DNA from: Acidimicrobiales bacterium | GTDB lineage: Bacteria; Actinomycetota; Acidimicrobiia; Acidimicrobiales; SZUA-35 | Reading direction: 5' to 3' | Length of the DNA: 64,000 bases | NCBI GenBank assembly: GCA_965216355.1 | Contig: CBDCFR010000013.1 | Location: 588,883-652,882, forward strand | Shown here: positions 16,151 through 59,008 of the stretch, in pieces | Position numbering within the stretch: position 1 is the stretch's first letter | How the letters are laid out: each line of letters begins with the position of its first letter | The notes under the pieces: model-generated | Seen by the model: only the letters and a program-made list of their open reading frames with translations | What the model was told of the DNA's origin: nothing | The model's database searches: none | Program-made: the position numbers and the translations under genes

Positions 16151-18712
16151 TTATCCGCGCCCAAATAGAGAGAATCCTGATGCCAGCGTCCACCTCTGTT
16201 TATCCGACTCGCCGACAGCAGCTGCCCAAGCCGTGCTCGGCGGGTCACCCCGGCGGTGGCGGACGTGGAAGTCGGCCATCAGATCTGTGAGGGTCGCAGT
16301 GTCCGGCACAGGCACCGCGGCCGCCAGCACGGTGCCAACCCCGGCGTTGAGCAGAGCGGTTACGAGTCCGAGTGTCTGGTTGCCGTCAGCACCACCGGTT
16401 TCGCCAACATCACAGGCCGACAGAACCAACAGCTTCGGCGGCGTCGTGAGACTCTGCAACTCGTATACGTCGAGGCTTCGGTCGTAAAACTGCAAGCTCG
16501 AAAACATGGGGCTTTCGGGCTGGGCGATGCCATGAGTGGCGAGGTGGGCAACATCAACTTCGTTGAGCGCGGCCAAGACCTTTTCGGCAGTGGCGTCTCG
16601 ACCGGCCAAAACTATGTCGTCGGGGATCGCCAATGACTCCACCTCGAGAGATGCTGTTTCGGTCGCGGGGCCACTGGCCATCAAGCGGCGGTGACGTTGC
16701 GGCCCGACCTGTGCGGTGTCGCCGCCGTCGACCCATGCGGTTAGGCTCGTGGCCGTTGTAGTGGAGTGGTTGGGCTTCGACGGGCAGCGACTTGGCAAGG
16801 ACGCGAACGGAAGCGCGAACAGATCGGGAGGTGGCACGATAACCACGTCGACTCCGTCGACTCCCAGCGGTTCGAAAATGATCTGATCAAGTCGCTCCAG
16901 CTCCGCCAGCACGCGGTCGGGGCGGACCCCGGAGGCGTCCTGAGCCCATCGTCGCTGGGCTTGTCGCAATGCTCGTACCCGCCGCTCCACGTAGTCGATC
17001 GGCCCAAGATCCACCCGCGCTACCGATCCAGCCTCGAACCGGCAGACCGTTAACTGGTCGTCGACTCGCCCCATCACGAGTCCAACTCGGTCGCCTAACG
17101 CCTCGCTGAGTCGGTCGACGCTGGCTTGCGTCGGAGCCCGGTGCCCTCTTTGGCTTGCCAACGTCTTGCTCTGGATGAGATCCTCCAGCTGTTGGCGGTC
17201 AGCGCGGCTAAGCCCCCGCGAGCGCAGACGGGTTCGCGCCGAAGTTAGATCAGCCTGAGCAGGGACTTGGGCCGGCCGGGGGAACGTTGTGACCAGGGCG
17301 ATTCGCTCAAACCACTCAAACAGGTTCAACGGCGACTGCGTGTTGGCACTGGCGGCAACCGTCAAGTCGGCCAGCCGCCGGGCGTGGCGATGGATACCGG
17401 TTCTGATCTCAGGAGAGCCGACCGCGGCCTGGGATTCCAACACCGCTTCGAAACCCGAATCCGCAGTGCGCAACAGCCCTTCCGCATCGCCCTTGGCGGA
17501 CATCACCTCTGCTGATGCGGTTGCGATGGCGAGGCGCTGGCTGACCGCATCGACGGCAAACGTATCGTTCGTACGTTGCAGCTCGGTCTCAGCTTCCTTG
17601 ATATCTCCTTGTCGGGCCAACACCCGGACCTTCAACAATCGGGCCTCCAGCTGGTGTTGATCCATTCCTGCGGCATCCAATCGTGGAAGCAGCGAATCCA
17701 ATTCGGAAAGTTCCGGCACAACACCCATGTCGAATTGCGCACGGAGCTGGATTAGCCGGGCCACGTCATCCCAGCCCCTTCGGCCCTGCTGCCGGAACGC
17801 ATCAGCCGATTGACGACCTCGGGACACGGCGAGTTCGTACTGCGCCACCTCAAGCCACGCGGCCGCGGCGATGACAAGCGTTTCGGCAGCGTCGGCCTTC
17901 ATCCCGGCCTCGATGCACTGAACTGCCGCCTCGTCGGCAATCCTGGCCGCTTCGCTGAACATGCCGGCTCTCATCAGAGCATCGCAGTAGCTTCGTTTGA
18001 ATTCGAAGTCGCTGTCGGTTCGGTTTACGAGTTCGACGCTGCTTTCGTTGAACAGCTGAAAGGCCTCAGGCAGCTGGTCGGACTTGGCCGCCGCGATAGC
18101 CAGGTTGAGTTTCACCCACGCGGAGTCGATGGCGTTTCCCATCGCGACGTACAGCTCAAGGGCGCGACTGAAGTGAACCGTTGCCGAGATGTGATCGTCG
18201 CGTTGGGCCGCCATCATCCCGGCGGAACGTTCAACCATTGCCAACAGCACGTCGTCGCCTTCGGCGAGCGCGGTGTGTCGGGCTTGATCGAATTTGTTCT
18301 GAGCCTCCTCGGTCGCCCCTGACCGGGCCAAGATCAAGCCATGCTGGTAGCCGACTCGCCCGGCCAAGGACTTGTCGTCGCCGGCGTCGATCGATGTGAT
18401 GACCTCCAGTGCGGCCGAGGTGTCGCCGCCCAAGAAGAGATTGTATGCGTGGGTCATTTGAGCCTCGGCCAACCTCGCTGCGGAGCCTGATTGTGAGGCT
18501 GCATCGACGGCCTGGCGGGAGAGCTCGGTCGCCCTCTCGGGTTTGGCTGCAACTCGGGCGGCCAAGCTTGCATGGCGTAGAACGCCGGCCCGGACCTCTG
18601 GATCCGCCTGGGCGTCCGGATGGCCTAGGTAGTCATCCAGCGACGACAGAGCGGCCGTCGGCGATGCTTCGTAGGCAGCCTGAAACCTCGCAACCAGACC
18701 GATCCCATCCAT
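16151..18712 (-). CDS. TPR-repeat CHAT-domain (caspase-like) protease
   Basis: An 853-aa protein. The N-terminal ~500 aa is helical-repeat (TPR-like). The C-terminal CHAT domain has a His/Cys dyad context (VAHLATHGIAQPESP ... KLLVLSACDVGE) and the tail LGLVTALLNAGVGTVLAAAVPVPD. Confidence 0.85.
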   Translation of the reverse strand: MDGIGLVARFQAAYEASPTAALSSLDDYLGHPDAQADPEVRAGVLRHASLAARVAAKPERATELSRQAVDAASQSGSAARLAEAQMTHAYNLFLGGDTSAALEVITSIDAGDDKSLAGRVGYQHGLILARSGATEEAQNKFDQARHTALAEGDDVLLAMVERSAGMMAAQRDDHISATVHFSRALELYVAMGNAIDSAWVKLNLAIAAAKSDQLPEAFQLFNESSVELVNRTDSDFEFKRSYCDALMRAGMFSEAARIADEAAVQCIEAGMKADAAETLVIAAAAWLEVAQYELAVSRGRQSADAFRQQGRRGWDDVARLIQLRAQFDMGVVPELSELDSLLPRLDAAGMDQHQLEARLLKVRVLARQGDIKEAETELQRTNDTFAVDAVSQRLAIATASAEVMSAKGDAEGLLRTADSGFEAVLESQAAVGSPEIRTGIHRHARRLADLTVAASANTQSPLNLFEWFERIALVTTFPRPAQVPAQADLTSARTRLRSRGLSRADRQQLEDLIQSKTLASQRGHRAPTQASVDRLSEALGDRVGLVMGRVDDQLTVCRFEAGSVARVDLGPIDYVERRVRALRQAQRRWAQDASGVRPDRVLAELERLDQIIFEPLGVDGVDVVIVPPPDLFALPFASLPSRCPSKPNHSTTTATSLTAWVDGGDTAQVGPQRHRRLMASGPATETASLEVESLAIPDDIVLAGRDATAEKVLAALNEVDVAHLATHGIAQPESPMFSSLQFYDRSLDVYELQSLTTPPKLLVLSACDVGETGGADGNQTLGLVTALLNAGVGTVLAAAVPVPDTATLTDLMADFHVRHRRGDPPSTAWAAAVGESDKQRWTLASGFSLFGRG

Positions 18713-40652: not shown

Positions 40653-42455
40653 CTAGCAGCCGGTCTGTTCCCAACTGCTCACGTGGAAACCCGTCGCATC
40701 TGCACTGGGTGCCACGGTGATGAGCAACAGGATTTCGTCGAGCGAGCGGTTGCTCAACGGAAGGACGTTGTCGAAGGGCAGAACGTAGTGGGTGAGGCCG
40801 TCGCCTACATCAACCTGCACAAACTCCAACGTCTGGCCCGATTGCAGGTCGCCGATCCCGCCTGATTCGAGGAAATGCAGCAGGGCCTCCTCCGGACTGC
40901 TGGACGGCTCGGAATCGGGTGTCAGATCAGATCCGCCCTCGTTGGGAGGAAGCCCAGGGCCTCCCCCCTCACACTCGACAACGATTGGCAGTCGGTCAGC
41001 CGACGCTACGGGAATCTCGGATGGTATGAGTGGCACAACGGATGTGTCGTTAACCGAAGATTGTCCGGAGTCGCCGCCTCGTGCTCCGGTGGCGTCGTCT
41101 TGCGGTGGGGTGCCGATCAAGGGTGTGTGCCGCCACACTTGCACCGTGGTGTCGGCCGAGCCGGTGGCGACCAGGTTGTTATCGAGCACGGCGATGACCG
41201 AGATCGAGTCGGCGTGGCCCGGAACCGTTTCGGCCAGCGCCACTGCCTGATCGGGGTGCCAGACCATGACGCTGCCATCGGCCGCACCGGAAACCAGCCG
41301 ACCGTCAGGCAGTGCGGCCAAGGCGGTGACCGCCTCGGCGTGCCGGTCGAACTCCACGACCTCACGCGGTGCCTCGTCGGGGTGCCAGACCAATATGATG
41401 CCGTCGGCCGAGCCGCTGGCGATCCTTCCATCAGGCAACACTGCGATGGCATTGACGGCTGCAGAATGCTCGTCGAACGGTCGGGTCGACGGGTCGTCAA
41501 GGCCGGTTTCGGGGTTCCAGAGTCGTACGTCACCCTCGGCATCACCGGTCACGATGCGACCATCGGCCAGCTGCCCTATGGCCAGCACCGTCGAAGCGTG
41601 CTGGGTTTCCACCAACAAGCTTTCGTTGCCAACCCAATCAAGAATCACATTGCCGTCGCCGGCCGCCGACGCGATTCTCTCGTCGTCGAGGAGAAGAGCT
41701 GGAACGACAGGGGCCGTTGCGTCGCGGTTAATACCTCCCCGGAGCCCCCCTCCCGTCTCGAGCTCATACTCATCAACGGCCAGCACACCGTCGAATACGC
41801 TGGTCACGACCACGGCGCCCGGTGAGAGTTGAGCCAGACCGGTGACCACCCGATCGGCAGGGCCAAACTCCTGGCTCGGATCGAAGGGTAGCTCCAGCTC
41901 CACGGAAGCCGCCCCGTCATCCAAGCGAGCCAGGTCCCAGATCTGCAGCGAATTGCCGTGGCTTCCCACAACGAGCCGACCGTCGTCGAGCTGGACCAGC
42001 GCCGTGACGTTCATATCGGTCAGCAGGCTGAGGCCGACTCCGGGTTGGAACACATCGTCCAGGCTCGAACCGGACTCCTCGTCTTCCACTGGTTGCCGGC
42101 TGGTTGTAGTCGTTGTTGTGCTATCGGGGGCGGTGTTTGTCGTGTCGCCCGGCTTGGTCGAGGAAATTCGTTGGGCTTGGTCGCCACCCGACAGGATCAG
42201 GCCGATCGTAAGCAGCGCCCCGACGAACACGGCGGCCGCCAGGGCCAACCAACGAGGTCGCCATGACCTGGTCTCGACCGCCGGTTCGGCAGCGGTGGGC
42301 GCGAGGTCCGACGAGTCGATCAGCACAAGGTCGGCCCGGTACGCCGAGTGGTCAGCGAGCGCCGGCCGATTTTCGAGCTCGGCAAGGGTGATCGGTTCCA
42401 CCTCGGCCGAGGAGGCGCGGATCGTTTCCGCCAGCAATGCCACCTGGTCAGCCAT
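40653..42455 (-). CDS. membrane-anchored anti-sigma-like protein with an extracytoplasmic WD40-type beta-propeller
   Basis: It overlaps the upstream ECF sigma gene by 8 nt. The TM helix is WLALAAAVFVGALLTIGLIL, followed by a Thr-rich linker. Repeated WD-like units are present (DGRIVTGDAEGDVRLWNPE; DGRIASGSADGIILVWHPD; DGRLVSGAADGSVMVWHPD; LVATGSADTTVQVWRH). Confidence 0.75.
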   Translation of the reverse strand: MADQVALLAETIRASSAEVEPITLAELENRPALADHSAYRADLVLIDSSDLAPTAAEPAVETRSWRPRWLALAAAVFVGALLTIGLILSGGDQAQRISSTKPGDTTNTAPDSTTTTTTSRQPVEDEESGSSLDDVFQPGVGLSLLTDMNVTALVQLDDGRLVVGSHGNSLQIWDLARLDDGAASVELELPFDPSQEFGPADRVVTGLAQLSPGAVVVTSVFDGVLAVDEYELETGGGLRGGINRDATAPVVPALLLDDERIASAAGDGNVILDWVGNESLLVETQHASTVLAIGQLADGRIVTGDAEGDVRLWNPETGLDDPSTRPFDEHSAAVNAIAVLPDGRIASGSADGIILVWHPDEAPREVVEFDRHAEAVTALAALPDGRLVSGAADGSVMVWHPDQAVALAETVPGHADSISVIAVLDNNLVATGSADTTVQVWRHTPLIGTPPQDDATGARGGDSGQSSVNDTSVVPLIPSEIPVASADRLPIVVECEGGGPGLPPNEGGSDLTPDSEPSSSPEEALLHFLESGGIGDLQSGQTLEFVQVDVGDGLTHYVLPFDNVLPLSNRSLDEILLLITVAPSADATGFHVSSWEQTGC

Positions 42456-42942
42456 CGACGTTCACCTCCAGGTTCGTCCTCAGACGGGTCAACGCCCGGC
42501 GTACGTGGGTGGCCACCGTCGACTCCGAACATTCGAGAAGTTCGGCCACCTCCCGTTGCCGATAGCCCATGCCGTGGACAAGCCACACCGCCACCCGCTG
42601 TTGTTGGGGAAGGCCGGCGAGATAGCGAAAGAGGTGAGGTTCGACGTGTGGTGGTTCCCAGTCGATGGGGATTCCCGCCATGTCCCCATCGACTCGGTCC
42701 TCCCGGGCGGTCGCCTTCAGCGCAGTGGACTGGCCGACTCGGTACAAATAGCCGACCGGATTGTCCATGACTCGAAGGCGATCCCAGTTCTGCCAACCCC
42801 AGGCCAACGCATCGGCGGCCGCTTCCCTTCCGCGGTGGTGCCCAAAGGCCGCCACCAGCGACAGCCGGACGCGTTCCTCAACCTCGGCAAAGAAGTCCGA
42901 GAAGTCGGTCTCTGCGTAGGCGGGCGCGGACTTGGCAGGCAC
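42448..42942 (-). CDS. ECF-type RNA polymerase sigma factor
   Basis: A 164-aa protein. Region 2-like sequence: AADALAWGWQNWDRL. Region 4 HTH: LPQQQRVAVWLVHGMGYRQREVAELLECSESTVATHVRRALTRLR. Confidence 0.85.
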   Translation of the reverse strand: MPAKSAPAYAETDFSDFFAEVEERVRLSLVAAFGHHRGREAAADALAWGWQNWDRLRVMDNPVGYLYRVGQSTALKATAREDRVDGDMAGIPIDWEPPHVEPHLFRYLAGLPQQQRVAVWLVHGMGYRQREVAELLECSESTVATHVRRALTRLRTNLEVNVDG

Positions 42943-43162: not shown

Positions 43163-44524
43163 ATGACCGCCGATGACTCCACTTGCTGTGGCCCGGGTTA
43201 CGCCTCCCCTGAGGAAGCCATGCAGGCCGACCGGGAAAAGCTCCTCTATACGGTTGCGCTCTACACCGGAACCGGGGTCGAATCCCCCGACTACCTGGCC
43301 ACTATCGACGCCGACCCCGAGTCGCCAACCTACTCCCAGGTGATCAGCCGCTTGGAGATGCCCAACATCGGCGACGAGTTGCATCACACCGGCTGGAACG
43401 CCTGCTCGTCGTGCCACAGCGACTCGTCGAAAGAACGCAAATACATGATCGTGCCCGGGGTACGGTCATCGCGCATTCACATCGTCGACACCGCCACCGA
43501 TCCTCGCAAACCCACCCTGCACAAGGTGATCGAAGGCGACGAGATCAAAGCGAAGACGAACCTGTCGGCCCCGCACACCGTGCACTGCCTCGGCTCCGAC
43601 ATCATCATCTCGATGCTCGGTGACGCCAACGGCGAGGCCCCCGGCGGCTTCCTCCATCTCAACGAGGACTTCGAGATTGTGGGCCGCTGGGAGAACGACA
43701 TCACGGGCATGAACTTCAACTACGACTTCTGGTATCAGCCCCGCCACAACATGATGGTGTCGTCGGAGTGGGGTGCCCCCAACACGTTTATGCCCGGCTT
43801 CGACCTCGGCGACGTGGAAGCGGGCAAGTACGGGCACTCGATTCACTTCTGGGACTTCGAGGGCAAGCGGATCGCCAAGACCGTCGATTTGGGCGAGGAG
43901 GGCATGATCCCCCTTGAGGTTCGTTTCCATCACAACCCCGACTCCACTCAGGGTTTTGTGGGCGCCACCCTTTCGTCGAACATCTTCCACTGGCACCAAA
44001 ACGGCAGCGGCCCGGAAGTGCAGAAGGTCATCGACGTTCCCCCGGTTGAGCTCGAGGGCTGGGACTTCCCGGTGCCAAGTCTGATCACCGACATCCTCGT
44101 GTCGATGGATGACCGCTACCTCTACTTCTCCAATTGGCTGCACGGCGACCTCCGCCAGTACGACATCAGCGATCCGGCCAACCCCAAGCTCACCGGCCAG
44201 GTGTGGATCGGCGGTCTGCTCGGCAACGGACCCGAGGTCAACGGCCACAAGATCGAGGGGGCACCGCAGATGATCCAGCTGTCGCTCGACGGCAAACGGC
44301 TCTACGCCACCACCTCGTTGTTCTCCACGTGGGACAATCAGTTCTACCCGGGCATGAACGAGACCGGTTCAGCGATGATTCTCGTCGACTGCGATCCCGA
44401 GAATGGCGGCATGTCGATCAACCCCGACTTCTTCGTCGACTTCGGCGCTGAGCCCAACGGGCCGTCTCGCTGCCACGAAACCCGCTATCCCGGCGGCGAC
44501 TGCACCTCCGACATTTGGCTCTAG
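43163..44524 (+). CDS. selenium-binding protein SBP56 / methanethiol oxidase family protein
   Basis: It is collinear along its whole length with what I recall of human SELENBP1. Shared strings are CCGPGYASPEEAM, DYLATIDADPESPTYSQVISRLEMPNIGDELHHTGWNACSSCH, YDFWYQPRHNMMVSSEW, LITDILVSMDDRYLYFSNWLHGDLRQYDISDP, PQMIQLSLDGKRLYATTSL and RYPGGDCTSDIW. No signal peptide is present. Confidence 0.95.
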   Translation: MTADDSTCCGPGYASPEEAMQADREKLLYTVALYTGTGVESPDYLATIDADPESPTYSQVISRLEMPNIGDELHHTGWNACSSCHSDSSKERKYMIVPGVRSSRIHIVDTATDPRKPTLHKVIEGDEIKAKTNLSAPHTVHCLGSDIIISMLGDANGEAPGGFLHLNEDFEIVGRWENDITGMNFNYDFWYQPRHNMMVSSEWGAPNTFMPGFDLGDVEAGKYGHSIHFWDFEGKRIAKTVDLGEEGMIPLEVRFHHNPDSTQGFVGATLSSNIFHWHQNGSGPEVQKVIDVPPVELEGWDFPVPSLITDILVSMDDRYLYFSNWLHGDLRQYDISDPANPKLTGQVWIGGLLGNGPEVNGHKIEGAPQMIQLSLDGKRLYATTSLFSTWDNQFYPGMNETGSAMILVDCDPENGGMSINPDFFVDFGAEPNGPSRCHETRYPGGDCTSDIWL

Positions 44525-44886
44525 AACAGTCAGGTCCAGAATCGGCCGGACCTGGTCGGCCGCACCAGGTCGCCCTCAGCAGCGAACAGTTTGCCGAGGG
44601 TGACCGGGTGCTGTCGGTGGAGCCTGATCAGACGATCCTCGACGCGGCCGAAGCGGCCGGGATTGTGCTGCCCTTCGGCTGTCGATATGGAGGGTGTGTG
44701 ACCTGCGCCGCCCGGTTGGTGGCGGGCGACGTGGCCCAACCCGAGGCGGTTGGACTCAAGAAATATATGGTCGACGCCAACTACGTCCTAACATGCGTGG
44801 CCTATGCGACAACCGACTGTGAACTCGAGGTTGGTGTGCGCAGCCACTTCAAGGGGCTGTACCGAAATCCGTTTCGAGGGAGTTAG
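44515..44886 (+). CDS. plant-type [2Fe-2S] ferredoxin
   Basis: The core reads DQTILDAAEAAGIVLPFGCRYGGCVTCAARLVAGDV...YVLTCVAYATTDCELEV (CxxxxCxxC...C). The start is uncertain (TTG 44515 overlapping the SBP56 stop, or an internal GTG near 44608). Confidence 0.75.
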   Translation: MALEQSGPESAGPGRPHQVALSSEQFAEGDRVLSVEPDQTILDAAEAAGIVLPFGCRYGGCVTCAARLVAGDVAQPEAVGLKKYMVDANYVLTCVAYATTDCELEVGVRSHFKGLYRNPFRGS

Positions 44887-52813: not shown

Positions 52814-53299
52814 GTGAAGGGCGTGACGAGTAGGCCGACCCAATCGATCGAAGAACTGTTCAAGACCGAACGGCTTGGTCTGATCCGGTTGGGCTATCTG
52901 CTGTCGGGGTCGCGAGAGCAGGCCGAGGACGCCACCCAGATCGCCTTCGCCGAGGCGTCAGCCCGCTGGGATCAGATAGACAACCACACGGCCTATCTCA
53001 AGCGAGTTGTGGTCAACCGCATCAAGGACGAACAGCGGCGATCGGCCCGCCGCCCGACCACCCGTCTACTCCACCGAGATGCCGAACCCGTCACCTCGAT
53101 CCCGGAGATCGACGAGACCTGGGAGCTGATCCAGACCCTTCCGTGGACGCAGCAGGCCGTGGTCGTACTGCGGTTCTATGAGGACCTGCCGCTGGTCGAG
53201 ATCGCAGAGGTACTCGGCCGGCGCCCCTCGACTATCCGATCCGATCTACGCCGAGCACTCACCCGACTTCGAAACACTCTGGGAAAGGCCCAGGCATGA
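52814..53299 (+). CDS. ECF-type RNA polymerase sigma factor
   Basis: Region 2: ERLGLIRLGYLLSGSREQAEDATQIAFAE. Region 4: LPWTQQAVVVLRFYEDLPLVEIAEVLGRRPSTIRSDLRRALTRLR. Confidence 0.85.
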   Translation: MKGVTSRPTQSIEELFKTERLGLIRLGYLLSGSREQAEDATQIAFAEASARWDQIDNHTAYLKRVVVNRIKDEQRRSARRPTTRLLHRDAEPVTSIPEIDETWELIQTLPWTQQAVVVLRFYEDLPLVEIAEVLGRRPSTIRSDLRRALTRLRNTLGKAQA

Positions 53300-54753
53300 G
53301 CGAACCCACCGACCTGATGGAAACAATCGAACCGGAACTCGAAGCGCATTTGCGTCGGACCCTCCAAGCCGTCGCCGCCACGGTCAATGAGGCTCGTGCC
53401 GACGTGAACGACGCTGTGATCTTTGACTCCGCGAAGGGCGCGCGACCGGGTCGCTGGGGTTGGCTGGGTGCAGTTGCCGCGGTGATTCTGGCCGTGGTGG
53501 TAGGTGCGGCCACGTTACGGGATGCCACCGTCCACCCGGCGGCGGAGCTGGCGGCGGGAACCTGGTCGGCGATGGATTCGGGGCCGCTGAGCCCCCGGTT
53601 TGCTCCGTCGGTGGTATGGACCGGCACTGAAATGGTGGTCATCGGTGGCTTCGACCAGTCGGGCGCCGTGTTGAGTGACGGTGCCGCCTACAACCCGTCG
53701 ACCGACACGTGGCGCCCGATCAGCTCAAAGCCCAGCGGCCGGGTTAGCTATCCCGGCCCGTGGCACCAGCAAGCTACGCCCGCGGTGGTTGTCGGAGATC
53801 AGATCCTGACGCTCGCCGAGCCGGTCGACAACAATGAGAGCGGCTGGGGTTGGGATCTCGTGGCCTATGATCTCGCCACCGACACCTGGGCGATCCTCGA
53901 CGAGAACCGGTTTGACCAGCTCCCGACCGACGAACTTGTGTCAACGGCCGGCAGCGCAACCGTCCGGAGCGTACACAGCATGGTGGCGTGGCGGGATCAG
54001 CTCATCGTGTTTGGCCAGGATAGAGACGTGGGCATCCACGGTTGGGCGAGCTTCAATCCGAACACTCGGACCTGGGGCGAGTTCACTCCGGTCGACAACG
54101 TCGAGAACCTCGATGCGTACCCAGCAAGTGTGGGCTCACCGACCCTAATCGATGATCGCTACCTCGTGCTTCTGTTTGAGCTCGGGGCGGCCCGGCCCAA
54201 CCTCGGAGTGGTGATCGATCTCGAACTCGACACCTCGCAACTCATCCCGTCACCGACCGCTCCTGAAGGCGAGGTCGCTGATGATCGGACGATCTACAAC
54301 TTTGGAATCTGGTCGAACGGCACCGCCGGGACGGTGATGGCCGGCGAAGCCATCAGCAATGAAGGGCAGGCCTGGAGGGTCGCAGCGATCCTTGATCCAG
54401 GAACCGCCGAGTTGAGCCTGGCGACGCCACCGTCCAAGGGTCCGTTGGGAGAAGGACCAGGAGCTATGGTGGCGATCCCCGGTGGCTACCTGACCGTCGG
54501 TGGTCTCACGATACCCGGCCGGTCGGGCGGTCTCGAGGTCGAATCGGTTGTGCTGGTGACCGACAAACAACTGACCCGATGGGTGGATGCCCCCAAGCCT
54601 CCGATCGATATCAACCGAACCGAGCACGCCGCCATCTGGACCGGGAAGCAGGTACTCATCTGGGGCGGCGCGACCGTCTCTCCCGATGGCCCGATCAATC
54701 GAGCCGATCAACCTCTCGGCGACGGTGCCCTCTTCACCCCCGGTTCAGGCTAA
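53296..54753 (+). CDS. membrane-anchored anti-sigma-like protein with a Kelch-type beta-propeller
   Basis: It overlaps the sigma gene by ATGA. The TM helix is WGWLGAVAAVILAVVVGAA. Kelch-like blades include LSPRFAPSVVWTGTEMVVIGGFDQSGAVLSDGAAYNPSTDTWRPI, ...VAWRDQLIVFG...FNPNTRTWGEF and ...HAAIWTGKQVLIWGG. Confidence 0.75.
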   Translation: MSEPTDLMETIEPELEAHLRRTLQAVAATVNEARADVNDAVIFDSAKGARPGRWGWLGAVAAVILAVVVGAATLRDATVHPAAELAAGTWSAMDSGPLSPRFAPSVVWTGTEMVVIGGFDQSGAVLSDGAAYNPSTDTWRPISSKPSGRVSYPGPWHQQATPAVVVGDQILTLAEPVDNNESGWGWDLVAYDLATDTWAILDENRFDQLPTDELVSTAGSATVRSVHSMVAWRDQLIVFGQDRDVGIHGWASFNPNTRTWGEFTPVDNVENLDAYPASVGSPTLIDDRYLVLLFELGAARPNLGVVIDLELDTSQLIPSPTAPEGEVADDRTIYNFGIWSNGTAGTVMAGEAISNEGQAWRVAAILDPGTAELSLATPPSKGPLGEGPGAMVAIPGGYLTVGGLTIPGRSGGLEVESVVLVTDKQLTRWVDAPKPPIDINRTEHAAIWTGKQVLIWGGATVSPDGPINRADQPLGDGALFTPGSG

Positions 54754-54781
54754 GCAGTTCTGAGCAGTACACTGGAATCTC

Positions 54782-55852
54782 GTGGGCTTACAAGATATTC
54801 CGCTAGGTCTGACGTTCGACGATGTGCTTCTCGTACCTCGAAGGTCGGATATCCGCTCTCGTCAAGACGTCTCCGTCGCCACGAAACTTTCCAAGCGCAT
54901 CGAGCTTGAGATTCCCATCGTGGCCGCCAACATGGACACCGTCTGCGAAACCGACATGGCCATCGAGATGGGCCGTCTCGGCGGCATTGGGATCATTCAT
55001 CGATTCCTCACCGTCGAAGATCAGGCCACGATGGTGGGCAAGGTCAAGGCCGAGGGTCTTAAGGTGGGCGCCGCCATCGGCACTGACCGCGACGCCATCG
55101 ATCGCACCCATGCCTTGGTCGACGCCGGTGTCGACGTTGTGGTGCTCGACATCGCCCACGGTCACGCCGGACACGCGCTGGAGATGACAGCTAAACTCAA
55201 GGGCGAGTTCCCCAATGTCGACCTGATCGCCGGTAATGTCGCCACCCGAGCCGGAGCCGAAGACTTGGCCGCGGCCGGAGCCGACGCGGTGAAGGTCGGG
55301 GTCGGTCCGGGCGGTGTGTGCACAACCCGGCTGGTTGCCGGGGTTGGTGTGCCTCAGCTCACCGCGATCGACAACTGCGCGTCCAAACCGCTGCTCGACT
55401 CCGACGGCGACCTTGTGCCTGTGATCGCCGACGGTGGCATCAAAACCTCAGCCGACATCGCCAAGGCCCTCGCCTGCGGGGCCAGCACCGTGATGATCGG
55501 CAGCATCCTGGCCGGCACCAAGGAAAGCCCCGGCCAGGTGGAGCAGTCGCCCAACGGACTCGTCAAACGAGTGCGGGGTATGGCCTCGTTTGAAGCGCTG
55601 AGCGCCCGGGCCCTACGAGAAGGCGGTGTGGTCGACCAGGAGTACTTCGAGCAACGCTCACCCGAAGGCGTGGAAGGCACGGTGCCGTATCGAGGTGAAG
55701 CTGGCCGGATCATCGCCAAGCTGGTGGCCGGGCTGCGCTCGGGTATGAGCTACAGCGATGCCCGCACCATCGAAGAGTTCTGGACCAAAGCCAAGTTTGT
55801 TCGGGTCACGGCCAACGGCGTGAGAGAGAACAAGCCGCACGCCACGCTGTAG
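54782..55852 (+). CDS. IMP dehydrogenase/GMP reductase family protein lacking the CBS subdomain (GuaB3-like)
   Basis: The N-terminus reads [46 protein letters not shown]. The catalytic loop is [25 protein letters not shown], and [27 protein letters not shown] is present. At 356 aa there is no CBS insert. Confidence 0.85.
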
Positions 55853-55877
55853 CCGCATAGCTGGTAGGGTCGGCGCC

Positions 55878-56342
55878 ATGTCAACCTTCCACGATTTCGA
55901 GATGGAATCGATCACCGGTGAGTCGGTGTCGTTCAAGCAGTTTCAGGGCCAGAGATGTCTGGTTGTCAACGTCGCCAGTCGTTGAGGCCTCACCCCTCAG
56001 TACGCAGGTCTGCGTGCGCTTCATAACGATCCGAACAACGACGTGATCGTCCTCGGTTTCCCCTGTAACCAGTTCGCCAACCAGGAGCCTGGCTCGAACG
56101 CCGAGATCCTCGAGTTCGCCACCTCAAACTACGACGTGAACTTCCCGATGTTCGCCAAGATCGACGTCAATGGCGACAACGAGGCTGAGCTTTATCGCTT
56201 CCTTAAAGCCGCCCAACCAGGCGACGGCGAAACGTCCGACATCGCCTGGAACTTCGAGAAGTTCCTGATCGACGGCGACGGCAACGTCACCCATCGCTTC
56301 AGCCCCACGGTCACTCCTGAGGAAATCGCCGAGCTGCTCTAG
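55878..56342 (+). CDS. gpx: glutathione peroxidase with an in-frame TGA at the catalytic position (probable selenocysteine)
   Basis: The frame is open from ATG 55878 to TAG 56342 apart from a TGA at 55983-55985. The translation is MSTFHDFEMESITGESVSFKQFQGQRCLVVNVASR-TGA-GLTPQYAGLRALHNDPNNDVIVLGFPCNQFANQEPGSNAEI...WNFEKFLIDGDGNV. The GPx signatures NVAS-x-[C/U]-G-x-T, LGFPCNQF and WNFEKFL are all present. Confidence 0.8.
55983..56020 (+). promoter_or_regulatory. candidate bacterial SECIS element downstream of the GPx UGA
   Basis: A hairpin GUACGC(56000-56005)-AGGUCU(56006-56011)-GCGUGC(56012-56017) starts 14 nt after the UGA. Its GCAGGUCUGC core and AGGUCU loop match the apical part of the E. 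coli fdhF SECIS as I remember it. Confidence 0.6.
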
Positions 56343-59008
56343 TTGCTGGCCTGAATGAGCGTGGCCACCAGACCGGTCCAACCGGTCTGATGCGAGGCGC
56401 CCAGGCCACGGCCGTTGTCGCCGTGAAAGTACTCGTGGAACAGGATCTGGTCGTGCCAACCGGAGTTGGTCTGAAAGAGGCGAGACTCGGGCTCCTGCTG
56501 GTCGCCGAACGCCGGTCGGTGCCCATGCTCGTCGTTGAGAAACAGCGACACGAGCCGACGAGCGAGATCGCCGCTGATGGTGCGCAGATTGTGACGCTCC
56601 CCGGATCCGCTGGGGTACTCCAGCACAAACGATTCGCCAAGACCGGCGTGGAACTGCTTAAGCGACTCGATCAACAGGTAGTTGACGGGGAACCACACCG
56701 GACCCCGCCAGTTGGAGTTGCCGCCGAACAATCCCGACTCCGACTCGGCCGGCTCATAACTGACAGTGGCCGAAATCCCGCCGACGTGGATGGTGAACGG
56801 ATTCTCGTCGTGGCTCTTGGCCAGCGACCGGATACCGAACGGCGACAGGAATTCGTCGGCGTCGAACATCGGAGTCAGGATGCGAGGTAGCCGCTCCGGC
56901 GACACGATCGACAGCAGCCACCCGGGTTGCGAGTCCGCTCCCGGCTCGGGCCCATCCGGGGAGACAGGGTGCACCACGTTGCTGGCCAGATGGGCCTTGT
57001 TGGTGAGGAACCAGTTGAAGCGGGAGGCGAAGTCGGGCAAGCGGTTGAGGGTCTCCTTCGAAACCGTGGTGGTGGCGGCCAGGGGCAGCAGCCCCACCAG
57101 GGAACGCACCCGCAGCGGCACCGGGGCCGCTCCCGGCGGGTGAAGCACGTCGTAGTAGAAGCCGTCGTCCTCATTCCACAGGCCGCTGTTGTTCATCGCG
57201 TTGGCGATGTAGGTGAAGTGCTCGAAGAACTTGGTGGCGATGTCTTCGTAGGTGACGTCGTGTTCGGCCAGGATCAACGCCATCTGCAGAAGGTTGAGGC
57301 TGTACATGGCCATCCACGCCGTGCCGTCGGACTGCTCGAGCCGTCCGCCGTTGGGAAGCCCCTCCGACCGGTCGATCGGGCCGATGTTGTCGAGGCCGAG
57401 GAAGCCGCCCTCAAACACGTTGTCGCCCTGCTGATCCTTGCGGTTGACCCACCAGGTGAAGTTGAGGAGCAGCTTGTGCATGATGCGCTCCAGAAACTCG
57501 TAGTCCTCCCCGCCGTCGATCTTGAACACCTGCAGGGCGGCCCACGCGTGGACCGGAGGATTCACGTCGCCAAAGGCCCACTCGTAAGCCGGTAGCTGAC
57601 CGTCGGGGTGCATGTACCACTCCCGGCACAACGTCACCAGCTGCTCCTTGGCGAAGTCGGCGTCGAGCTGGGCCAGCGGCACACAGTGAAAGGCCAGGTC
57701 CCACGCTGCGTACCAGGGGTACTCCCACTTGTCAGGCATCGAGATGATGTCGCGATTGTTGAGGTGGCGCCAGGCCGAGTTACGGCCTCGCTTGCGACTG
57801 CTCGGAGGTGGGCTACCGGCAGGGTCGCCGTCGAGCCAGCGTTCAACATCGAAGTGATAGAACTGCTTGGTCCACAACATCCCGGCGTAGGCCTGGCGGG
57901 CGACCAACGTTTCCTCGGCGGAGGCCGATGGTGGGATCAGCGTGCGGTAGAAGTCGTCGGCCTCCTGATGCCGAGCGGTCAGGACCTGCTCGATCTCAGC
58001 CGTCGATGAGGTTGCCAACGCCGATGTCGCCGTTGGTGCGAGTCGAAGCTCGATCACAGAGCTGGCCCCGGCCTCCACCGTCAGCTGGTAGTGAAGGGCC
58101 GCTTTGGTGCCGTGCTGGTCGGGATTCACGGTTGCCGCGCCGCCGATTACGTGGTCGTTGATGCCGTCCTTGGGATAGGGATCGCCGTCGGTCCCCCAGA
58201 GGAGCCGGCTGTTTGACTCGTTGTTGCAGAACAGGCGGGCCGGATCGAGACCGTTTGCAGCGGTCAACGTCATCGATCCGAGGCGCGGATGGTCGGCCAC
58301 CAACCCACCGCCCGAGCCCGACGGTCGGATGATCGGTTGCTGCTTTTCAGCGCGCTCATCGTCCCACGACCAGGTGTTGCGGAACCACAGGGTGGGCAGC
58401 ACGTGCAGGGTCGCCGCCTGCGGTCCGGCGTTGCGAACGGTGAGGCGGATGGCGATGTCGTCGGGAGAGTCCTTCGCGTAGTCGGCGGTGATCTCCCAAT
58501 AGCGGTTGTCGTCGAACACGCCGGTGTCGGCCAGCTCGTACTCAGGGTCGAGTCGACCTCGACGAGCGTTCTCGTCAACCAGCTGCTGATACGGGAACTC
58601 GGCGTGAGGATAGGCGTAACGCCACCGCATCCACGAATGGGTGGGGGTGGAGTCGAGGTACCACCAGTACTCCTTCACGTCCTCGCCATGGTTGCCCTCG
58701 TGGCCGGTCAGGCCAAAGAGGCGTTCCTTCAAAACCGGATCGTTGCCGTTCCAGAAGGCGAAGGCCAGGCACAGCCGTTGTTTGCTGTCGCAAATGCCGC
58801 CGAGGCCGTCTTCGTTCCAGCGGTAGGTCCGCGATCGAGCGTGATCATGGGGAAAGTAGCGCCAGGGATCGGCGGCCGCTCCGTAGTCTTCCCGCACCGT
58901 TCCCCAGGCCCGCTCGCTCACGTAGGGGCCCCAACGTTTCCATTGTTTTGCGGTGTGGTTTCCGTCGCCCAGGAGTCGCTGGTGCTCGGCAGTGGTCATG
59001 CCCATCAT
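56339..59008 (-). CDS. GH63/MGH1-like (alpha/alpha)6-barrel glycoside hydrolase (glucosidase-like)
   Basis: An 889-aa protein. The conserved N-terminus is WKRWGPYVSERAWGTVREDYG...WRYFPHDHARSRTYRWNEDGLGGICD...LCLAFAFWNGNDPVLKERLFGLTGHEGNHGEDVKEYWWYLDSTPTHSWMRWRYAYP. The C-terminal barrel contains NWRGPVWFPVNYLLIESL and FHEYFHGDNGRGLGASHQTGWTGLVA. Confidence 0.8.
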   Translation of the reverse strand: MMGMTTAEHQRLLGDGNHTAKQWKRWGPYVSERAWGTVREDYGAAADPWRYFPHDHARSRTYRWNEDGLGGICDSKQRLCLAFAFWNGNDPVLKERLFGLTGHEGNHGEDVKEYWWYLDSTPTHSWMRWRYAYPHAEFPYQQLVDENARRGRLDPEYELADTGVFDDNRYWEITADYAKDSPDDIAIRLTVRNAGPQAATLHVLPTLWFRNTWSWDDERAEKQQPIIRPSGSGGGLVADHPRLGSMTLTAANGLDPARLFCNNESNSRLLWGTDGDPYPKDGINDHVIGGAATVNPDQHGTKAALHYQLTVEAGASSVIELRLAPTATSALATSSTAEIEQVLTARHQEADDFYRTLIPPSASAEETLVARQAYAGMLWTKQFYHFDVERWLDGDPAGSPPPSSRKRGRNSAWRHLNNRDIISMPDKWEYPWYAAWDLAFHCVPLAQLDADFAKEQLVTLCREWYMHPDGQLPAYEWAFGDVNPPVHAWAALQVFKIDGGEDYEFLERIMHKLLLNFTWWVNRKDQQGDNVFEGGFLGLDNIGPIDRSEGLPNGGRLEQSDGTAWMAMYSLNLLQMALILAEHDVTYEDIATKFFEHFTYIANAMNNSGLWNEDDGFYYDVLHPPGAAPVPLRVRSLVGLLPLAATTTVSKETLNRLPDFASRFNWFLTNKAHLASNVVHPVSPDGPEPGADSQPGWLLSIVSPERLPRILTPMFDADEFLSPFGIRSLAKSHDENPFTIHVGGISATVSYEPAESESGLFGGNSNWRGPVWFPVNYLLIESLKQFHAGLGESFVLEYPSGSGERHNLRTISGDLARRLVSLFLNDEHGHRPAFGDQQEPESRLFQTNSGWHDQILFHEYFHGDNGRGLGASHQTGWTGLVATLIQASN

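What the first reader, a model, noticed from the sequence alone, without database searches (positions are those of the whole stretch)
55878..56342. Probable selenocysteine glutathione peroxidase with an fdhF-like SECIS hairpin, missed by ORF calling
- The ORF track reports only the 99-aa tail (56043..56342). The frame is in fact open from ATG 55878, with a single TGA at 55983-55985.
- That TGA falls exactly where GPx enzymes carry the redox Cys or Sec (VVNVASR-[TGA]-GLTPQY).
- Fourteen nt downstream lies the hairpin GUACGC-AGGUCU-GCGUGC (56000-56017). Its GCAGGUCUGC core and hexaloop match the SelB-binding apical loop of the E. coli fdhF SECIS as I remember it, at nearly the same distance from the UGA.
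- Sec-containing GPx is the rule in animals but uncommon in bacteria, where most homologues use Cys. Sec use in Actinomycetota is patchy.
Basis: partly seen in the sequence, partly recalled or inferred. Interest (0 to 1): 0.7.

Follow-up and report, generated by a model that had tools for sequence, protein, structure and literature searches.

The report
Selenocysteine glutathione peroxidase gene, mis-annotated
This is one intact 154-codon gene for a glutathione-peroxidase-family enzyme whose catalytic residue is almost certainly selenocysteine, encoded by an in-frame TGA followed by a conserved RNA hairpin. It belongs to a type of bacterial selenoprotein that is already known, and gene callers routinely cut it down to a 99-120 residue tail.

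Summary
The frame is open from ATG 55878 to TAG 56342 with a single TGA at 55983-55985. Read through, it matches the whole Pfam GSHPx profile (E 2.7e-39). The TGA sits in the peroxidatic Cys/Sec column.

- 23 relatives from independent assemblies carry TGA in the same column. They come mostly from Acidimicrobiales/Ilumatobacter MAGs and metagenome contigs, and at least one from a Pseudomonadales MAG.
- All 23 also carry the same codon string, CAG TAC GCA GGT CTG CG(T/C), which folds into a 7-bp stem with a GGUC loop. The loop starts 21 nt after the UGA.
- Only one of 99 Cys-type homologues with the same QYAGL peptide has this string. That one is a TGT form that looks like a recent Sec-to-Cys convert.
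- Synonymous diversity collapses over exactly these codons (0.015 versus 0.38 elsewhere).
- The codons upstream of the TGA are under purifying selection.
- The 10-nt hairpin tip is identical to the E. coli fdhF SECIS, checked against E. coli genomes, but the bulged U of fdhF is absent.

Sec forms also lack the resolving Cys that 139 of 142 Cys forms have.

One thing could not be tested: selA, selB, selC and selD are not in the window, and the rest of the genome was out of reach.

Bacterial Sec-GPx (UxxT) has been described since 2004-2005, so this is a new member of a known kind. Interest is modest.

The parts
55878..56342 (+). Complete coding sequence of the Sec-containing GPx-family peroxidase: 154 codons (ATG, U36, TAG stop).
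   Evidence: One open frame with a single TGA. Covers Pfam PF00255 positions 1-108 of 108, E 2.7e-39. The N-terminus MSTFHDFEM aligns from residue 1 with relatives.
55983..55985 (+). In-frame TGA, predicted to be the selenocysteine codon (U36, the peroxidatic residue, in a UxxT motif).
   Evidence: TGA in 24 of 24 Sec forms and TGC/TGT in 142 Cys forms in the same column. Aligns with Cys36 of yeast Gpx3/Hyr1, PDB 3cmi.
56000..56017 (+). Predicted bacterial SECIS hairpin inside the ORF: stem GUACGCA/UGCGUGC and GGUC loop (56007-56010).
   Evidence: It is both the MFE and the RNAalifold consensus structure. 99.3% of cells are paired in 20 distinct sequences. Codons 41-45 have zero synonymous diversity. 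The 10-mer GCAGGTCTGC is identical to the E. coli fdhF SECIS tip.
55878..55982 (+). N-terminal 35 codons that ORF callers drop. They are translated together with the tail.
   Evidence: dN/dS against eight relatives (seven Sec forms and the Cys form L161) is 0.12-0.53 in the six pairs that were not saturated. That is the same range as the downstream part, 0.09-0.30.
56043..56342 (+). The 99-aa tail that mechanical and public annotation reports as the gene. It starts at an internal GTG that really encodes V56.
   Evidence: The identical 99-aa protein P0016 is on record from a 4,933,771-bp NCBI/ENA contig.
56118..56120 (+). Codon for A81, the column of the resolving Cys in 2-Cys GPx enzymes. The Cys is absent here.
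   Evidence: Ala or Val in 24 of 24 Sec forms and Cys in 139 of 142 Cys forms. Aligns with Cys82 of yeast Gpx3/Hyr1.

Best explanation
Positions 55878-56342 are one gene for a 154-residue peroxidase of the glutathione-peroxidase family, and its peroxidatic residue is selenocysteine.

**Proposed mechanism (inferred)**
- During translation the UGA at 55983 is not read as stop.
- The mRNA hairpin 14 nt downstream (7-bp stem, GGUC loop, loop 21 nt after the UGA) binds the Sec-specific elongation factor SelB, which is loaded with Sec-tRNA(Sec).
- SelB delivers the tRNA to the UGA in the ribosomal A site, so Sec36 is inserted and translation continues to TAG 56342.

**The enzyme**
- It keeps the GPx catalytic tetrad: U36, Q69, W124, N125.
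- It lacks the resolving cysteine of the usual bacterial, yeast and plant thioredoxin-dependent 2-Cys GPx enzymes.
- The selenenic acid formed on peroxide reduction is therefore probably reduced directly by a thiol, in the manner of animal Sec-GPx enzymes. Which thiol is unknown.

**Shown versus inferred**
- Shown: the gene architecture, family membership, catalytic column, and the joint conservation of TGA and hairpin.
- Inferred: SelB binding, actual Sec insertion, the reductant, and the presence of selA/B/C/D elsewhere in the genome.
For: 1. The read-through product matches the full GSHPx profile. Its best solved relative is yeast Gpx3/Hyr1 at E 3.8e-40, with U36 aligned to the peroxidatic Cys36.
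2. 23 relatives carry TGA in the same column. They comprise 7 GTDB genomes, 15 metagenome contigs and L163, and have 52-77% amino-acid identity among themselves.
3. All 24 Sec forms share CAG TAC GCA GGT CTG CG(T/C). Among 99 Cys forms with the same QYAGL peptide, only L161 has it.
4. Of 61 amino-acid-conserved degenerate codon columns in 22 distinct Sec-form genes, only 6 have zero synonymous diversity. Five of those are codons 41-45. Mean diversity is 0.015 against 0.383 elsewhere; in 100,000 permutations, no random set of six columns had a mean as low.
5. These are rare codons in the window, so the string has P of about 5e-4 given the peptide.
6. Once Sec is replaced, the hairpin decays. 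L162 (TGT) has CAGTACGAGGGACTCGTG, whereas L161 (TGT) still has it intact, as expected just after a TGA-to-TGT change.
7. dN/dS upstream of the TGA is 0.12-0.53, so the 35 upstream codons are translated in this frame.
8. The hairpin meets the published bacterial SECIS criteria. There are 16-37 nt from UGA to the apical loop (PMC10778597) and a small loop containing G (PMC1088965). Its 10-nt tip equals the E. coli fdhF SECIS.
9. TGA is an ordinary stop in this genome: 9 of 28 Pfam-supported genes end in it. A dedicated signal is therefore needed.
10. Sec machinery is documented in another order of Acidimicrobiia (bioRxiv 10.64898/2026.04.03.716425). The window's PEPCK places the source in Acidimicrobiia/Ilumatobacteraceae.
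Against: - No selA, selB or selD and no tRNA-Sec lie in the 64-kb window or in any fetched locus. The Sec-decoding trait of this particular genome is therefore unverified.
- The stem shows no compensatory (two-sided) covariation, only one G-U/A-U wobble change. The support comes from invariance at synonymous sites, not from covariation.
- Folding energy alone is not significant.
- Rfam has no match, although bacterial SECIS elements are poorly covered there.
- The bulged U of the fdhF minihelix is absent.
- No second selenoprotein gene was found in the window.
- Read support for the TGA in this assembly cannot be inspected.
Confidence: 0.88

Rival explanations
1. The gene is a dead remnant. 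The lineage once made a Sec-GPx but this genome has lost the Sec machinery, so the TGA now terminates translation after 35 residues and the gene is a recent pseudogene.
For: No Sec machinery lies in the window. The literature reports that loss of the Sec trait and of selenoproteins is frequent in bacteria (PMC1794560).
Against: - The frame is intact over all 154 codons, with start, stop, catalytic tetrad and an unaltered consensus hairpin.
- dN/dS against relatives is low on both sides of the TGA.
- The hairpin decays once it is unnecessary (L162), yet here it is perfect.
- A very recent loss cannot be excluded from one window.
Confidence: 0.07
2. The TGA is a base-calling or assembly error, or a minor allele, and the real codon is TGT/TGC. 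On this reading the gene is an ordinary Cys-GPx.
For: A natural TGT variant with the identical hairpin exists (L161). One base therefore separates the two states, and reads cannot be inspected here.
Against: - 23 independent assemblies from different studies carry TGA in this column.
- Public gene calls for the source contig also stop here: P0016 is the 99-aa tail.
- The correlated features of Sec forms are all present: R46, A81, and the GCA-GGT-CTG-CGT codons.
Confidence: 0.03
3. The UGA is read through by a standard tRNA, giving Trp or Cys by near-cognate decoding or under an alternative genetic code. The hairpin would then only stimulate read-through, and the residue is not Sec.
For: One public gene caller translated a relative's TGA as W (P0001 and L163). 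RNA structures downstream of a stop can promote read-through (general knowledge).
Against: - TGA ends 9 of 28 Pfam-supported genes in the window, so there is no TGA reassignment.
- Trp at the peroxidatic position would kill catalysis.
- The hairpin tip is the specific SelB-binding sequence of fdhF, not a generic structure.
- The family is an established selenoprotein family with a UxxT motif (PMC1088965, PMC9312934).
Confidence: 0.02

Closest known systems
Bacterial Sec-containing GPx-like proteins (UxxT motif). First predicted in Treponema denticola, then in Sargasso Sea and GOS metagenomes (PMC1088965, PMC2398784, PMC9312934, PMC13188914).
   Same: - Same Pfam family (PF00255).
- Sec at the peroxidatic position in a U-x-x-T motif.
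- The SECIS stem-loop lies inside the ORF, just after the UGA.
- Rare relative to Cys homologues: 40 Sec versus 3,287 Cys in GOS.
- Mostly marine.
   Different: - The host here is an Acidimicrobiia (Ilumatobacteraceae-like) bacterium, which none of the papers I searched name as a host for this family.
- Whether the Sargasso and GOS sequences belong to the same clade could not be checked, because their sequences are not held.
- In none of the passages I read did I find the link seen here between Sec and loss of the resolving Cys.
E. coli fdhF SECIS (the SelB-binding minihelix of formate dehydrogenase H mRNA).
   Same: - Identical 10-nt tip GCAGGUCUGC, that is, three closing pairs plus a GGUC loop.
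- Located inside the ORF.
- Similar distance from the UGA: 18 nt there versus 21 nt here.
   Different: - There is no bulged U below the tip. fdhF folds as (((.(((....)))))), whereas the window has seven continuous pairs.
- The lower stem differs and is not supported here.
- The host protein is unrelated.
- Which SelB residues recognise the hairpin in Acidimicrobiia is unknown.
Thioredoxin-dependent 2-Cys GPx enzymes: yeast Gpx3/Hyr1 (PDB 3cmi) and the Cys-type bacterial homologues.
   Same: - Same fold and length, monomer-type, without the oligomerisation loop.
- Best solved match, E 3.8e-40.
- Gln, Trp and Asn of the tetrad are invariant.
   Different: - The peroxidatic residue is Sec, not Cys.
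- The resolving Cys (Cys82 in Gpx3) is Ala here and Ala or Val in all 24 Sec forms. The intramolecular disulfide and thioredoxin cycle of these enzymes is therefore unlikely.
Animal Sec-GPx enzymes such as GPx4.
   Same: Sec at the active site. By my recollection of the GPx4 sequence there is no resolving Cys and the enzyme is monomeric. GPx4 structures match at E about 1e-32 to 1e-33.
   Different: Animal genes use a eukaryotic SECIS in the 3' UTR, with SBP2 and EFSec. Here the signal is a bacterial-type hairpin in the coding region. [quoted passage not shown]

Membership tests
Glutathione peroxidase family (Pfam PF00255, GSHPx) | Full-length match to the family profile above the curated cut-off. 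| tested here: met
   133.5 bits against a cut-off of 27, profile positions 1-108 of 108, E 2.7e-39, with U replaced by C.
Glutathione peroxidase family (Pfam PF00255, GSHPx) | Catalytic tetrad of Sec/Cys, Gln, Trp and Asn in the conserved columns. The residue assignment follows GPx4 Sec46/Gln81/Trp136/Asn137, from established knowledge. | tested here: met
   U36 lies in the Cys column of 142 homologues. Q69, W124 and N125 are invariant in all 166 sequences. U36 aligns with Cys36 of Gpx3.
Glutathione peroxidase family (Pfam PF00255, GSHPx) | Peroxidase activity with a thiol reductant. | not testable with these tools
   This needs enzymology. The reductant (glutathione, mycothiol, thioredoxin or another thiol) is unknown.
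2-Cys, thioredoxin-dependent GPx subgroup (Gpx3/BtuE type) | A resolving Cys in the helix after the FPCNQF block (Cys82 of yeast Gpx3). | tested here: not met
   The window has Ala81. Sec forms have Ala or Val in 24 of 24, and Cys forms have Cys in 139 of 142.
Bacterial selenoprotein gene (SelB/SECIS-dependent UGA recoding) | An in-frame UGA aligned with a redox Cys of homologues, with conserved coding sequence on both sides. | tested here: met
   dN/dS is 0.12-0.53 upstream and 0.09-0.30 downstream.
Bacterial selenoprotein gene (SelB/SECIS-dependent UGA recoding) | A stem-loop downstream of the UGA with 16-37 nt between the UGA and a small apical loop that contains G (PMC10778597, PMC1088965). 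| tested here: met
   7-bp stem, GGUC loop, 21 nt between UGA and loop.
Bacterial selenoprotein gene (SelB/SECIS-dependent UGA recoding) | The hairpin is conserved with the UGA among orthologues and lost in Cys forms. | tested here: met
   Present in 24 of 24 Sec forms and in 1 of 99 Cys forms with the same peptide. Synonymous diversity is 0.015 against 0.383.
Bacterial selenoprotein gene (SelB/SECIS-dependent UGA recoding) | Compensatory base-pair covariation in the stem. | tested here: inconclusive
   Five of 7 pairs never vary, one shows a G-U/A-U change, and none changes on both sides.
Bacterial selenoprotein gene (SelB/SECIS-dependent UGA recoding) | The genome encodes selA, selB, selD and tRNA-Sec (selC). 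| not testable with these tools
   None lies in the window or in the fetched loci.
E. coli fdhF-type SECIS minihelix | Apical sequence GCAGGUCUGC with a GGUC loop. The loop G and U are the SelB contacts, from established knowledge. | tested here: met
   Exact 10-mer at 56004-56013. The fdhF sequence was verified in E. coli genomes.
E. coli fdhF-type SECIS minihelix | A bulged U on the 5' side below the tip (U17 in the fdhF numbering, from established knowledge). | tested here: not met
   The window stem is continuous, (((((((....))))))). fdhF folds as (((.(((....)))))).
Rfam SECIS families | A match to a curated covariance model. | tested here: not met
   No hit at gathering threshold in the window. 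No SECIS hit at E up to 10 in 55850-56150. Bacterial SECIS elements are poorly represented in Rfam, a point also made in bioRxiv 10.64898/2026.04.03.716425.

The most novel reading that the evidence does not exclude
The gene may belong to a single, mobile Sec-GPx lineage.
- The lineage would have swapped the 2-Cys (thioredoxin-type) catalytic cycle for a one-residue Sec mechanism.
- It carries its own 'universal' SelB-binding tip, identical to that of E. coli fdhF, inside a conserved peptide (QYAGLR).
- This would let the cassette move between phyla, from marine Acidimicrobiia to Gammaproteobacteria.
- It would also let it flip repeatedly between Sec and Cys, leaving fossil hairpins behind.
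Probability: 0.35. Interest if true: 0.45.

Novelty: new member of a known kind. Interest (0 to 1): 0.3.

Why it matters
- **Annotation.** Public records, including RefSeq entries such as WP_394928682.1, list these genes as 99-120 residue 'glutathione peroxidases' that lack their catalytic residue. One gene caller wrote Trp at the TGA. The active form of an antioxidant enzyme that recurs in marine Ilumatobacter-like Actinomycetota is therefore invisible to proteome-based analyses.
- **Selenium use.** An intact Sec-GPx implies that this 4.9-Mb Acidimicrobiia genome uses selenocysteine. This adds to recent evidence for Sec use in that class.
- **Natural experiments.** The 24 Sec forms and their nested Cys revertants show how a SECIS is written into a coding sequence and how it decays. 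They also show that Sec goes together with loss of the resolving Cys.
- **Limits.** None of this overturns current understanding.

Tried and rejected
- **Rfam.** A gathering scan of the window and a permissive scan of 55850-56150 found no SECIS family.
- **Sec machinery.**
  - ARAGORN found no tRNA in the window, and only a tRNA-Met in L008.
  - Pfam scans of 48 window ORFs found no SelA, SelB or SelD domains.
  - tblastn with E. coli SelA, SelB and SelD against the window and 163 loci gave only a weak GTPase hit in L048.
- **Retrieving the source contig.** Exact-protein look-up failed for P0016 and P0144. Cluster look-up confirmed one 4,933,771-bp NCBI/ENA contig but gave no name.
- **A second selenoprotein gene in the window.** Two ORF/TGA screens and a GGTC-loop screen gave only off-frame junk besides the GPx.
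- **A lower SECIS helix involving the UGA.** Two alternatives (UGAGG:CCUCA and UGAGGC:GCUUCA) are 93% and 88% paired but show no covariation and are broken in 5-7 of 20 sequences. Inconclusive.
- **Synteny.** The window's neighbours (an IMPDH-family gene upstream, a GH63-like gene convergent downstream) are not found next to any other Sec-GPx locus.
- **Promoter and terminator scan of 54600-56700.** Nothing relevant.
- **Not attempted.** I considered using the last protein-database search to look for SelD or SelA on the source contig. I rejected it because an E. coli query would list only its 120 closest relatives, so it could not reach an Acidimicrobiia homologue.

Full report
**1. The observation**

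The + strand frame starting at ATG 55878 runs to TAG 56340-56342. It contains one stop, TGA at 55983-55985. The mechanical ORF list holds only the 99-aa tail, 56043..56342, which begins at an internal GTG. The peptide around the TGA is VVNVASR-*-GLTPQY. The sequence GUACGCAGGUCUGCGUGC occupies 56000-56017, 14 nt after the UGA.

The only descriptive correction concerns the loop. Both the single-sequence fold and the alignment fold close the A-U pair, giving a 7-bp stem and a GGUC tetraloop rather than a hexaloop.

**2. What the protein is**

With the TGA read as a residue, the 154-aa product covers the whole Pfam GSHPx profile (positions 1-108 of 108, 133.5 bits, E 2.7e-39).
- The best solved relative is yeast Gpx3/Hyr1 (3cmi, E 3.8e-40). 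Animal GPx4 structures follow at about 1e-32 to 1e-33.
- In that alignment the TGA codon pairs with the peroxidatic Cys36 of Gpx3.
- In an alignment of 166 homologous genes, the column is TGA in 24 and TGC/TGT in 142.
- The other tetrad residues (Q69, W124, N125) are invariant.

**3. Comparative evidence for recoding**

One scan of species-representative genomes and one of metagenome contigs were made with the protein as query. Three exact-protein look-ups were added.

*The Sec forms.*
- Together these gave 23 further genes with TGA in the catalytic column: L001-L005, L008, L009, L081-L094, L096 and L163.
- Those with organism names are Acidimicrobiales, Acidimicrobiaceae or Ilumatobacter MAGs. 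L008 is from a Pseudomonadales MAG.
- All 24 Sec forms have the identical DNA string CAG TAC GCA GGT CTG CG(T/C) for residues Q41-R46.

*The Cys forms.*
- Among 142 Cys forms, 99 encode the same QYAGL peptide, but only one has that DNA string.
- Cys forms mostly use GCC/GCG, GGC/GGG and CTG/CTC, and have Glu or Gln instead of Arg at position 46.

*Synonymous diversity.*
- Within 22 distinct Sec-form genes, 61 codon columns have a conserved, degenerate amino acid.
- Only six of these have zero synonymous diversity, and five of the six are the consecutive codons 41-45.
- Mean diversity is 0.015 for codons 41-46 against 0.383 elsewhere. In 100,000 permutations, no random set of six columns had a mean as low.
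- GCA, GGT and CGT are minority codons in the window (0.10, 0.22, 0.13). The string has a probability of about 5e-4 given the peptide.

This is the signature of an RNA element superimposed on a coding sequence. It is tied to the presence of TGA.

**4. Two informative exceptions**

- L161 (protein P0020) has TGT at the catalytic codon but retains the hairpin exactly. It sits next to the Sec form L004 in a neighbour-joining tree. This is what a very recent TGA-to-TGT change would look like.
- L162 (P0003) is also TGT and also nested among Sec forms. Its hairpin has lost the structure (CAGTACGAGGGACTCGTG) and the peptide has changed to QYEGLV.

The hairpin is therefore maintained only while the TGA is there.

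**5. The N-terminal part is translated**

Nei-Gojobori estimates were made between the window and eight relatives.
- For the 34 codons upstream of the TGA, dN/dS is 0.12-0.53 in the six pairs that were not saturated.
- For the codons downstream of the hairpin it is 0.09-0.30.
- The start ATG aligns with residue 1 of relatives.
- A pseudogene, or a tail expressed on its own, would not preserve the upstream frame in this way.

**6. Comparison with the fdhF SECIS**

- The E. coli sequence I recalled (TGACACGGCCCATCGGTTGCAGGTCTGCACCAATCGGTCGGTAATG) was checked. It matches at 99% identity or more inside fdhF in 5413 of the 5420 E. coli records that hit.
- Window and fdhF share the 10-mer GCAGGTCTGC, that is, three closing pairs and the GGUC loop.
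- The loop begins 18 nt after the UGA in fdhF and 21 nt after it here. Both lie inside the 16-37 nt range quoted for bacterial SECIS elements (PMC10778597), and both have the small G-containing loop (PMC1088965).
- fdhF has a bulged U below the tip, which the window lacks.
- A lower helix could not be established here.
- The stem shows no two-sided covariation, only one G-U/A-U alternation, and its folding energy is not exceptional.
- Rfam gives no match.

**7. The Sec forms are mechanistically distinct**

- The column of the resolving Cys of 2-Cys GPx enzymes (Cys82 of yeast Gpx3) is Cys in 139 of 142 Cys forms. It is Ala or Val in all 24 Sec forms.
- The three Cys forms without it are L097, L161 and L162. 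These are three of the six Cys forms that fall inside the Sec clade.
- I infer that the Sec enzymes do not use the intramolecular disulfide and thioredoxin cycle. They are probably reduced directly by a thiol, as animal Sec-GPx enzymes are. The reductant is unknown.

**8. Source and surroundings**

- Window proteins are on record from one 4,933,771-bp NCBI/ENA contig.
- Named relatives of the window's PEPCK, at about 80-82% identity, are Acidimicrobiia, Ilumatobacteraceae or Ilumatobacter.
- G+C content is about 0.62.
- The gene lies 25 nt downstream of an IMPDH-family gene. It converges on a GH63-like gene, and the stop codons of the two overlap in a CTAG.
- No promoter-like or terminator-like site is nearby, so co-transcription with the upstream gene is plausible but unproven.
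- The neighbourhood is not conserved among Sec-GPx loci.
- TGA is a normal stop here: 9 of 28 Pfam-supported genes end in it.

**9. What could not be shown**

The window holds no tRNA and no SelA, SelB or SelD. No second selenoprotein gene was found. The rest of the genome was not retrievable. The Sec-decoding trait of this genome is therefore inferred from the intactness and conservation of the TGA-hairpin pair. It is also consistent with a report of universal selA, selB, selC and selD in another order of Acidimicrobiia (bioRxiv 10.64898/2026.04.03.716425).

**10. Novelty**

- Bacterial Sec-GPx with a UxxT motif was predicted in Treponema denticola (reference 12 of the review tables in PMC9312934 and PMC13188914; PMC1794560 lists Gpx in that organism's selenoproteome).
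- It was then found in the Sargasso Sea (5 sequences, PMC1088965) and in GOS data (40 Sec versus 3,287 Cys, PMC2398784).
- It is listed in recent reviews (PMC9312934, PMC13188914).

The finding is thus a new, well-supported member of a known selenoprotein family in an Acidimicrobiia host. Its practical point is that public annotation truncates it: P0016 is 99 aa, RefSeq WP_394928682.1 is 120 aa, and P0001 has W at the TGA.

**11. Verdict**

| Reading | Confidence |
|---|---|
| Sec-GPx with a bacterial SECIS | 0.88 |
| Recent pseudogene | 0.07 |
| Base error | 0.03 |
| Non-Sec read-through | 0.02 |

Interest is 0.3.

Noticed in passing
L161:3082-3129 (ENA ERZ27313181 k141_150515; protein P0020): A Cys-type (TGT) GPx keeps the complete SECIS hairpin string CAGTACGCAGGTCTGCGTGC. 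It looks like a 'fossil' SECIS left by a very recent Sec-to-Cys change. Its relative L162 (TGT) has already lost the hairpin.
   Followed up: partly
window 56118-56120 (A81) and the same column in 166 homologues: The resolving-Cys column is Cys in 139 of 142 Cys-GPx genes but Ala or Val in all 24 Sec-GPx genes. Arg46 is found in 24 of 24 Sec forms and only 4 of 142 Cys forms; its CGU codon forms the 3' arm of the hairpin.
   Followed up: partly
L008, L094, L096 (L008 = Pseudomonadales MAG JASMJM010000122.1); protein P0125: - Sec-GPx genes with the identical hairpin also occur on lower-G+C contigs (0.55-0.59) assigned to Gammaproteobacteria.
- In a neighbour-joining tree they group with gammaproteobacterial Cys forms.
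- One 90%-identity protein cluster mixes 'Ilumatobacter sp.' with 'Candidatus Azotimanducaceae'.
- The cause could be cross-phylum transfer or mis-binning.
   Followed up: partly
Public records: P0016 (99 aa, the window's own gene), WP_394928682.1 and WP_394936426.1 (120 aa), the P0103 cluster (61 members, 101-120 aa), P0001 (157 aa with W): Sec-GPx genes of this clade are systematically annotated as truncated 'glutathione peroxidase'. The truncated proteins start just after the TGA or at an internal GTG. One JGI call translated the TGA as Trp.
   Followed up: yes
window 43163-44524 (+) and 44515-44886 (+): A full-length homologue of the 56-kDa selenium-binding protein family (SBP56, PF05694, E 5.9e-216) is followed, with a 10-nt overlap, by a 2Fe-2S ferredoxin-domain gene. 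SBP56 binds selenium but is not part of the Sec-insertion machinery.
   Followed up: no
window 56339-56342: The GPx gene and the convergent 889-aa GH63-like gene (56339..59008, - strand) end in the same CTAG. Each strand reads TAG, so their stop codons overlap and there is no intergenic space for a terminator.
   Followed up: no
window 52814-54753 (+) and 40653-42942 (-): There are two pairs of a small ECF-type sigma-70 gene immediately followed, with overlap, by a beta-propeller protein (Kelch repeats at 53296-54753, WD40 repeats at 40653-42455). They may be sigma/anti-sigma-like modules.
   Followed up: no
window 16151-18712 (-): An 853-aa protein with a C-terminal CHAT (caspase-like) domain (PF12770, E 7e-25). 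Many neighbouring ORFs between 7300 and 12300 and between 22750 and 28100 have no Pfam match.
   Followed up: no
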